Positions 22,771-23,105 of a stretch of 64,000 bases of DNA are shown here, piece by piece. The notes beneath the pieces were generated by a model. That model was not told the origin of the DNA, ran no database searches, and was given only the letters and a program-made list of their open reading frames with translations. Position 1 is the first letter of the stretch; the number at the start of each line of letters is the position of its first letter. The stretch comes from Octopus vulgaris (lineage: Eukaryota): NCBI GenBank assembly GCA_951406725.2, contig OX597817.1, positions 176,390,001 to 176,454,000 of the forward strand. The letters are read 5' to 3'. A program made the translations under genes and the position numbers.

Positions 22771-23105
22771 AACAATGATAAATATCAAAGTGAGTTATCT
22801 ATAGTAGCGGTAACACATCGTGACGTATATTTGCTTGGAAGAGTATAAGTATTTGTGAAGGAAATTCTAATTCTCGGCGACAACTATGATTGTCACACGC
22901 TGACGAGAGGTCAATACCTCGAAACTCGAGTCCGTGTGTATCATAAGTTGAAGACGGGAAGGATGACTTCCCTTTGCAAATACTGACAGGACACAGAAAG
23001 TGTGTCTATGACCAGCTGGAGGAGTGTGTCCTCCTGGGGTTAAAACTACAGTAGCATCCACCCTTCGGGGTTAGCCATATTGAAATGGCAAATATACGTC
23101 ACGAT
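22771..23105 (+). mobile_element. ~335-bp structured non-autonomous element with a hammerhead ribozyme and an 18-bp inverted repeat
   Basis: ATCGTGACGTATATTTGC (22817-22834) is the exact reverse complement of 23088-23105. There is a ~46-bp extension left of the repeat and several internal hairpins. Flanked by TTA. Confidence 0.75.
22894..22938 (+). ncRNA. Minimal type I hammerhead ribozyme, canonical core
   Basis: CACACG-CTGACGA-GAGGT caat ACCTC-GAAA-CTCGAG-TC-CGTGTG: perfect stems I and II, palindromic stem III, GUC cleavage triplet. Confidence 0.9.

What the first reader, a model, noticed from the sequence alone, without database searches (positions are those of the whole stretch)
22817..23105. 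Compact, highly structured ~290-nt RNA with a perfect hammerhead
Seen: an 18-bp closing stem and a canonical hammerhead with palindromic stem III (CTCGAG). There is a long-range pair AGTATTTGTGAAGG/CCTTTGCAAATACT with G-U wobbles. Further hairpins are GGGAAG/CTTCCC, GACAC/GTGTC, GGAGGA/TCCTCC, CCC-TTCG-GGG and GCCAT/ATGGC. Known: palindromic stem III allows dimeric cleavage, and retrozyme RNAs of this size form circles. Inference: a retrozyme-like RNA; the best single candidate here for bench testing.
Basis: partly seen in the sequence, partly recalled or inferred. Interest (0 to 1): 0.75.

Follow-up and report, generated by a model that had tools for sequence, protein, structure and literature searches.

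The report
Inverted stub of a hammerhead retrozyme
This is one truncated, partly flipped copy of an abundant 353-base non-coding repeat that carries a predicted self-cutting RNA motif; its striking 18-pair closing stem is likely a by-product of how this copy was pasted in, probably by Penelope-type retrotransposon enzymes, so it is likely a new member of a known class (animal retrozymes) rather than a new self-contained RNA.

Summary
The type I hammerhead is real (Rfam RF00163, E 3.6e-6; predicted cut after 22932) and the RNA folds far better than shuffles. But the 289-nt unit is not the family's RNA. Contigs from 8 public runs show an abundant family; in two runs of different studies the contigs close into a 353-nt head-to-tail cycle with no room for an ORF. 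The window copy (22771-23105, in (ATT)n) is 271 nt of that unit plus an inverted 64-nt piece of its 3' end. The 18-bp 'closing stem' is the overlap of the two arms; the extra 46 nt on one end only resembles the Penelope 'tail'. Most inner helices fit family variation, including compensatory pairs; the UUCG loop is private and two listed hairpins exclude other stems. Best reading: an animal non-LTR retrozyme copied by Penelope-like enzymes from two fixed start points (about 0.7). Cleavage, expression, circles and the partner enzyme are untested; a closed cycle cannot tell genomic tandem from circular RNA. This one-ribozyme copy cannot yield a unit circle, so it is a poor bench candidate. The scan noted this kind before on other DNA, with other families, including in this genome.

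The parts
22771..22816 (-). 46-nt 'tail': in the family unit this follows 23105 directly; present at the left end only, read on the minus strand (long end)
   Evidence: X13 record 10 joins 23105 to 22816 on opposite strands; X2 joint 22816/23105; loose ends behind 23105 resemble it; X17 and X19 joints
22817..22834 (-).
   Evidence: exact 18 bp; X17 record 9 and X19 run from 23087 into 22834 on the opposite strand; loose ends behind 22834 continue as the reverse of the stretch before 23088
22835..22841 (+). inversion junction, apparently copy-specific; approximates the last letters of the 42-nt part of the unit that is otherwise absent here; 2-nt GC microhomology inferred
   Evidence: no listed piece spans it; summed contig depth in bin 22837-48 is 759/1992/2662 against 123850/105374/24977 just left of it in X1/X2/X3 (depth is no copy number)
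22842..23105 (+). direct arm: 264 nt of the 353-nt monomer, ending at the short end (23102-23105)
   Evidence: X17 record 9, X13 record 11, X10 record 1 (0 other letters, 1 gap over 22842-22950)
22894..22938 (+). type I hammerhead ribozyme, predicted cleavage after C22932; stem I extended by 22881-22890/22940-22950; palindrome 22924-22931 allows a dimer duplex of -10.7 kcal/mol
22848..22984 (+). 14-bp long-range helix 22848-22861/22971-22984 that carries the hammerhead domain
   Evidence: in all folds that hold both strands; both wobble positions 22975 and 22976 have minor variants that make Watson-Crick pairs
22989..23089 (+). 3' hairpin domain: 22989-23007; 23009-13/23038-42 (A-U here, G-C in the family at 23011/23040); 23018-34; 23060-71 (loop UUAG in the family); 23074-89; 23046-55 predicted to pair with the tail in the monomer
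18009..22770 (.). (ATT)n microsatellite, left flank (target)
23106..23187 (.). (ATT)n microsatellite, right flank (target)

Best explanation
This is a truncated, partly inverted copy of an abundant 353-nt non-coding repeat with a type I hammerhead, likely an animal non-LTR retrozyme that was likely pasted into an ATT microsatellite by the enzymes of a Penelope-like element. Shown: hammerhead motif, multi-copy family, closed 353-nt unit, two outward-facing 3' ends 46 nt apart on the unit, ATT target. Inferred mechanism: head-to-tail source copies are transcribed; successive hammerheads cut after GUC (probably helped by pairing of two stem III palindromes), giving 353-nt monomers that a host ligase could circularise; a Penelope-like RT/GIY-YIG protein nicks both strands of ATT-rich DNA and primes reverse transcription from each end at two fixed internal sites of the RNA (short end near 23102-05, long end 43-47 nt further on); the two cDNAs (271 and 64 nt here) stop early and are joined head to head. 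The 18-bp stem is then the length of the short arm minus the tail and has no role in the family RNA.
For: Closed cycle: X17 record 9 is 383 nt, runs 23043-23087(+), 22834-22770(-), 42 other letters, 22842-23072(+), so its ends overlap by 30 nt and the unit is 353 nt; X13 records 11 (296 nt) and 9 (117 nt) give 296+117-60 = 353 independently (other organism code and study; the 30-nt overlaps assume 31-letter words, as states for its index). Family size: 3201, 3372 and 1790 contigs laid in X1-X3; 20 of 24 listed runs, 7 organism codes, hold part of it. No ATG ORF over 25 codons in 22771-23105. Structure: z -4.83, -4.72 for the circular model with 42 N; of 50 listed variants 23 are unpaired, 18 keep, restore or can be compensated, 9 break, against 15.4 breaking in a rough null (p 0.0014); near-fixed family letters at 23011/23040 swap A-U for G-C, and at 22802 restore a pair between 23049 and the tail that cannot form in a plus-strand transcript of this copy. 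Penelope footprint: inverted 5'-truncated copy and a tail at one end only (PMC8557442, passages); ATT cleavage, extension of both strands and two RT start sites defining the tail (PMC11167929, parts 1-2). Other copies end at 23102 (36 contigs in X1 with AT-rich loose ends; 1 in X17) or at 22774 in (TA)n (1 contig in X19). Two other hammerhead-bearing elements in the window have the same inverted, one-tail layout, one around a GIY-YIG-like frame.
Against: No cleavage, expression or circle shown. A closed contig cycle arises from a genomic tandem as well as from an RNA circle, and no tandem was seen in the window. The active fold is not the predicted minimum. No partner protein was tied to this family: the window's Penelope-like element shares no sequence with it. 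The tail (46 nt) is a little longer than the published 30-40 bp. Variants are unphased, are not depleted at paired positions (27 of 50 against 172 of 311 positions), and the near-fixed 22799 change breaks the last pair of the tail helix; in X19 depth sums suggest the contigs with the compensated stem II pair also change 22920, which breaks the base pair of stem II in an ungapped alignment. The helices were drawn from this copy and the tail helix was extended by hand, which favours the test. The tools showed only part of their tables (405 and 43 loose ends, 8410 and 363 pieces not shown), so a branch into an ORF cannot be excluded.
Confidence: 0.7

Rival explanations
1. It is the cut-off terminal repeat (pLTR) of an autonomous Penelope-like element; the 353-nt cycle is only a short partial tandem of that repeat.
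For: Same inverted-plus-tail layout and hammerhead position as Penelope termini; retrozymes are reported to be related to pLTRs (10.64898/2026.07.22.740005); many loose ends were not displayed.
Against: In two low-complexity runs the graph closes on itself with no branch shown (X17 is one 383-nt piece at depth 23.6; X13); the same upstream letters precede 22842 in X5, X10 and X13; no ORF start follows the hammerhead; the hammerhead is of canonical size, not the minimal kind typical of pLTRs.
Confidence: 0.11
2. It is the same retrozyme but copied by a neighbouring kind of LINE (the RT elements that sit in the same (ATT)n tracts), the inversion arising by LINE-type twin priming.
For: RT-encoding elements lie in (ATT)n at about 23190-30776 and 2570-7554; that they are of the R4/Dong kind, which favours TAA repeats, is recalled, not tested.
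Against: No shared 3' end with these elements (best match 14 nt, E 0.22); no poly(A) or repeat tail; two ends at internal points of a closed unit match Penelope biochemistry; other copies end in (TA)n.
Confidence: 0.08
3. It is a satellite DNA unit spread at the DNA level (recombination or DNA circles), with the hammerhead a relic.
For: A closed cycle is what a satellite gives; no RNA evidence here.
Against: Intact core, compensatory changes in RNA helices, fixed ends and head-to-head joining in a microsatellite.
Confidence: 0.07
4. One reading: a self-contained 289-nt RNA closed by a functional 18-bp stem.
For: Exact 18 bp and z -7.70.
Against: The left arm is the family's own 3' end read backwards; other copies run straight through it; the stem is absent from the monomer model and competes with the GCCAT hairpin.
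Confidence: 0.02
5. A MITE-like DNA transposon with 18-bp terminal inverted repeats.
For: Short non-coding element with inverted ends; a DDE-transposase frame exists at 39658-40617.
Against: The left repeat lies 46 nt inside the element and is not shared by the family; opposite-strand joints fall at several places.
Confidence: 0.02

Closest known systems
Metazoan non-LTR retrozymes (Cervera and de la Pena 2020, PMC7229834: parts 2-4 of 6 and passages read, supplement not readable; Li, Clavereau and Pollet 2026, bioRxiv 10.64898/2026.07.22.740005: parts 1-3 of 5 read)
   Same: Canonical type I hammerhead with 2-bp stem III, unit of 150-450 bp (mussel 350-390, axolotl 330 and 350), GC under 50% (42% here), no coding frame, strongly self-paired predicted RNA, many copies.
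   Different: This copy is a single truncated unit with an inverted arm, not a tandem; circles and cleavage not shown; neither paper's text as read describes Penelope-type inverted/tail insertion ends for retrozymes, and PMC7229834 has 0 occurrences of octopus, cephalopod, squid or 'inverted' in its main text.
Endonuclease-positive Penelope-like element insertions (Craig et al. 2021, PMC8557442: 12 passages and section 11 read; Frangieh et al. 2024, PMC11167929: parts 1-2 of 4 read)
   Same: Inverted 5'-truncated copy, tail at one end only, AT-rich/ATT target, type I hammerhead upstream of the two ends; the short end falls in a predicted small hairpin with an A/C-rich loop.
   Different: No RT/GIY-YIG frame; the unit closes on itself; tail 46 nt rather than 30-40; canonical rather than minimal hammerhead.
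Rfam RF00163 Hammerhead_1
   Same: All 45 model positions matched, E 3.6e-6.
   Different: 32.2 bits, under the gathering score of 34, so routine Rfam annotation misses it.

Membership tests
Type I hammerhead ribozyme | Conserved core CUGANGA / GAAA / NUH with stems I-III, open at stem I | tested here: met
   (4 descriptor hits in the window, 0.05 per shuffled window)
Type I hammerhead ribozyme | Self-cleavage at the NUH site, as monomer or dimer | not testable with these tools
   active fold 6.1 kcal/mol above the minimum; dimer duplex -10.7 kcal/mol
Type I hammerhead ribozyme | Loop 1-loop 2 tertiary contact | not tested
   an internal loop at 22891-93/22939 and a 4-nt loop 2 exist; contact not modelled
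Animal non-LTR retrozyme | Repeat unit of 150-450 bp, GC under 50%, with one type I hammerhead | tested here: met
   353 nt; 42% GC over the 311 known letters
Animal non-LTR retrozyme | Non-coding, many copies | tested here: met
Animal non-LTR retrozyme | Head-to-tail tandem copies in the genome | tested here: inconclusive
   closed 353-nt cycle in X13 (kind unknown) and X17 (RNA guessed); no genome held; one copy in the window
Animal non-LTR retrozyme | 'Active' copy = at least two consecutive hammerhead units (Li et al. 2026) | tested here: not met
   this copy has one hammerhead; this bears on the copy, not on the family
Animal non-LTR retrozyme | Highly self-paired predicted RNA, supported by variation | tested here: met
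   unphased variants, rough null
Animal non-LTR retrozyme | Expressed as linear and circular monomer RNA | not testable with these tools
   only contigs were available; they show no strand, ends or level
Animal non-LTR retrozyme | Target-site duplication longer than 4 bp when present | tested here: inconclusive
   both flanks are (ATT)n
Autonomous Penelope-like element | ORF with RT and GIY-YIG endonuclease | tested here: not met
Penelope-type insertion product | Inverted 5'-truncated arm and a tail at one end only | tested here: met
   64-nt inverted arm, 46-nt tail at left end only
Penelope-type insertion product | Ends of many copies cluster at two fixed sites | tested here: inconclusive
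   short end recurs (36 contigs at 23102 in X1, 1 in X17); long end seen here and in 1 contig of X19; no genome-wide count possible
MITE / DNA transposon | Inverted repeats at both termini, shared by the family | tested here: not met

The most novel reading that the evidence does not exclude
The closed 353-nt cycle is an abundant circular RNA of a probably cephalopod host, and a Penelope-like enzyme copies that circle from both nicked DNA strands at once, starting at two fixed sites that flank a hairpin and a tail-pairing helix; the RNA fold would then be the recognition signal, giving a small, defined template with which to settle which enzyme mobilises animal retrozymes and whether circles are the template.
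Probability: 0.35. Interest if true: 0.6.

Novelty: new member of a known kind. Interest (0 to 1): 0.33.

Why it matters
Animal retrozymes are known, and their dependence on Penelope-like elements is proposed from shared ribozymes, co-occurrence and trees, with the mechanism left open. A non-coding closed unit that carries the Penelope inverted-arm-and-tail footprint in an ATT target is insertion-site evidence for that link and names the two sites to test in vitro. It also warns that long perfect closing stems in such copies inflate folding scores (z -7.7 falls to -4.8) and are not RNA features. I found no paper on cephalopod retrozymes in searches (and none on this architecture in 12, 26, 35, 36 beyond those cited), but subscription papers, repeat libraries and the unread supplement of PMC7229834 may hold it.

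Tried and rejected
No genome is held for the window, so copies, tandems and ends could not be counted. Rfam at gathering level: 0 hits in the window. Exact 23-nt pattern: 0 matches in metagenome and viral contigs. No RNA holder listed; X10, X17 and X19 are only guessed to be RNA and are not used as evidence of expression. No second copy in the window; the 14-17-nt match at 38037-38053 is chance level (E 0.22). No tRNA gene in the window, so no tRNA-derived SINE head was seen; the bacterial promoter scan does not apply to an animal repeat. Search for full-length relatives of the window's GIY-YIG-like frame: none at E 1e-10 among 324 longer candidates; 5 unnamed hits among 56 near-length candidates, so neither partner nor host was named. 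Host taxon not established by my calls: Atlas clusters lean to Mollusca on very few records; 'octopus-like' comes from earlier unchecked notes. Earlier findings by place and by sequence: nothing for this family. In one search my hand-entered long-range pairs were one base out of register; the fold's own helix list was used and one search is corrected. An HDV-like motif suspected near 30700 gave no Rfam ribozyme hit.

Full report
Observation. The stretch lies in a repeat-rich animal window: (ATT)n runs from 18009 to 22770 and from 23104 to 23187, and the non-repeat insert spans 22771-23105, 46 nt further left than the finding. The 18-bp inverted pair is exact. The hammerhead at 22894-22938 matches all 45 positions of Rfam RF00163 at 32.2 bits, E 3.6e-6, under the gathering score of 34 (whole-window gathering scan 0 hits). 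Core, stem I (6 bp, extended by two 5-bp helices), stem II (5 bp) and stem III (2 bp, inside an 8-nt palindrome) are all pairable, and the cut is predicted after C22932. The finding's stretch folds at z -7.70; without the inverted arm z is -4.83; 0 of 200 shuffles reached either. The active hammerhead fold is 6.1 kcal/mol above the local minimum, stem II has probability about 0.3 and stem III 0, while two palindromes pair at -10.7 kcal/mol. Two listed hairpins compete with other stems: GGGAAG/CTTCCC with the long-range pair (it appears only in the 3' cleavage product) and GCCAT/ATGGC with the 18-bp stem.

The family. No genome is held and the window has one copy. Of 24 listed public runs 20 hold part of the stretch, under 7 organism codes. 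I laid 8 of them. X1, X2 and X3 gave 3201, 3372 and 1790 contigs, X13 gave 12; X5, X10, X17 and X19 gave 2, 360, 6 and 16. X10 record 1 matches 22842-22950 with no other letter and one gap, so this copy is close to an abundant subfamily. The decisive piece is X17 record 9: 383 nt, in the order 23043-23087(+), 22834-22770(-), 42 letters not in the window, 22842-23072(+). Its two ends overlap by 30 positions, which closes a 353-nt cycle. I had derived the same number beforehand from X13: records of 296 and 117 nt overlapping by 30 at both ends (on one side only the last 4 letters of the overlap were visible). X13 record 10 and joints in X2, X17 and X19 also link the 3' end to the reverse of the left arm. 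So the family unit is a 353-nt head-to-tail monomer without a coding frame (longest ATG frame in the copy 25 codons). A closed cycle comes from a genomic tandem or from a circular RNA; X13 is of unknown kind and X17 only guessed to be RNA, so the two are not told apart.

What the window copy is. It is a direct arm of 271 nt (22835-23105) joined head to head to an inverted arm of 64 nt (22771-22834). Both 3' ends face outward, one stopping at 23105 and the other 46 nt further along the unit; 64 minus 46 is the 18-bp 'closing stem'. About 35-42 nt of the unit are missing, and there is one hammerhead. No listed piece spans the junction, and summed depth in the junction bin falls to 759-2662 against 25,000-124,000 just left of it (the tool warns that depth is no copy number, so the joins are the main evidence). 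Other copies stop at 23102 (36 contigs in X1 with AT-rich loose ends of low agreement, 1 in X17) or at 22774 next to (TA)n (1 contig in X19), and opposite-strand joints occur at several other places.

Is the inner structure conserved? In a circular model made of the window's own pieces with 42 N for the absent letters, z is -4.72 (0 of 100 shuffles); the 18-bp stem is gone, the long-range helix and the GACAC, GGAGGA, ACCC and GCCAT hairpins stay, 23046-55 pairs with the tail, and a small hairpin spans the short end. I mapped all 50 distinct substitutions displayed (2 rows were not shown; indels left out): 23 unpaired, 13 keep or restore a pair, 5 pair only with a listed partner change, 9 break; a rough null with the same letter changes gives 15.4 breaks, p 0.0014. 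Among 17 changes reaching a quarter of the depth, 2 break. Best cases: A23011-U23040 here against G-C in about 97-100% of depth; G23022-C23030 against A-U in one X19 contig (equal depth 11.1); the near-fixed family letter at 22802 repairs a mismatch in the tail helix. Against: variants are unphased and not depleted in stems (27 of 50 against 172 of 311 positions); the near-fixed change at 22799 breaks a terminal pair; changes at 22907 and 22920 disturb the base of stem II in some subfamilies; helices were drawn from this copy. The UUCG loop is private: 94-97% of depth in X1-X3 and X10 reads A at 23066.

Mechanism. PMC8557442 (passages) describes Penelope-like insertions with an inverted 5'-truncated copy and a 30-40-bp tail often at one end only. 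PMC11167929 (parts 1-2 of 4) shows a purified Penelope protein cutting and extending both strands, preferring ATT, and starting reverse transcription at two internal RNA sites whose distance is the tail; hammerhead cleavage was not needed for insertion in vitro. The window copy fits each point: ATT target, two outward 3' ends at internal points of a closed unit, tail on one side. Two other hammerhead-bearing elements in the window have the same layout, 47784-53461 (1614-bp arms, 97%; tail about 69 nt on the left; GIY-YIG-like frame inside) and 53591-55873 (895-bp arms, 98%; tail about 124 nt on the right), so such enzymes have acted in this genome, but neither shares sequence with this family. 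Transcription, cleavage, ligation, circle use and the partner enzyme are all inferred. Rivals: pLTR stub of an autonomous element (0.11), copying by the neighbouring LINEs (0.08), DNA-level satellite (0.07), self-contained 289-nt RNA (0.02), MITE (0.02).

Comparison and novelty. It works like, and on the features I could test belongs with, the animal non-LTR retrozymes of PMC7229834 (parts 2-4 of 6; supplement not readable) and bioRxiv 10.64898/2026.07.22.740005 (parts 1-3 of 5): type I hammerhead, 150-450-bp unit, low GC, non-coding, self-paired. Genomic tandems are inconclusive and circles untested; this copy fails Li et al.'s 'active' criterion of two consecutive hammerheads. It is not an autonomous Penelope element. 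Paper searches found no report of cephalopod retrozymes or of this insertion footprint on retrozymes; the host is not established by my calls. The scan's own unchecked notes describe the same kind for other families of 310 to 590 nt in this and other genomes; none was found for this family by sequence. My Penelope-footprint reading was recorded before I saw them; their wording of a short and a long end primed from both strands is reused.

Noticed in passing
window 47784-53461: Element with 1614-bp inverted arms (97%), a minimal hammerhead-like motif near both outer ends (cores 47914 minus, 53400 plus), a tail of about 69 nt on the left end only, in (TA)n, around a broken GIY-YIG-like frame at 50154-50786 whose cysteine spacing resembles the Hydra clade as described in PMC8557442 section 11.
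   Followed up: partly
window 53591-55873: Element with 895-bp inverted arms (98%) in (TA)n; right arm has an intact type I hammerhead with a long stem II insert and a palindromic stem III (core 55644, cut after 55719), the left arm's core carries a G8 change; tail of about 124 nt on the right only; a further palindrome lies at the centre.
   Followed up: partly
window 62415-63276: Tandem-plus-inverted 160-bp repeats around a hammerhead on the minus strand (core 62702, cut after 62639).
   Followed up: no
window 41164-41207 (minus): Fourth descriptor hit for a type I hammerhead, with a palindromic stem III and a weak stem II.
   Followed up: no
window about 23190-30776 and 2570-7554 (minus): Several nested or adjacent RT-encoding LINE copies inside (ATT)n tracts; R4/Dong-like by recalled motifs, not tested. 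The 5' end near 30700 looked HDV-ribozyme-like by eye but gave no Rfam ribozyme hit.
   Followed up: partly
runs X1, X3, X5, X13, X19 at 23061-23097: A second subfamily shares only the two last hairpins and has different letters before 23061 and after 23097, suggesting a related retrozyme family with the same 3' hairpin module.
   Followed up: no
window 39658-40617: 320-codon open frame with an ISXO2-like DDE transposase domain (PF12762, E 7e-16).
   Followed up: no
window 31528-33512: Two adjacent 330/328-codon microsatellite blocks with equal spacing of short matches (about 989 bp), a likely tandem duplication or assembly repeat.
   Followed up: no
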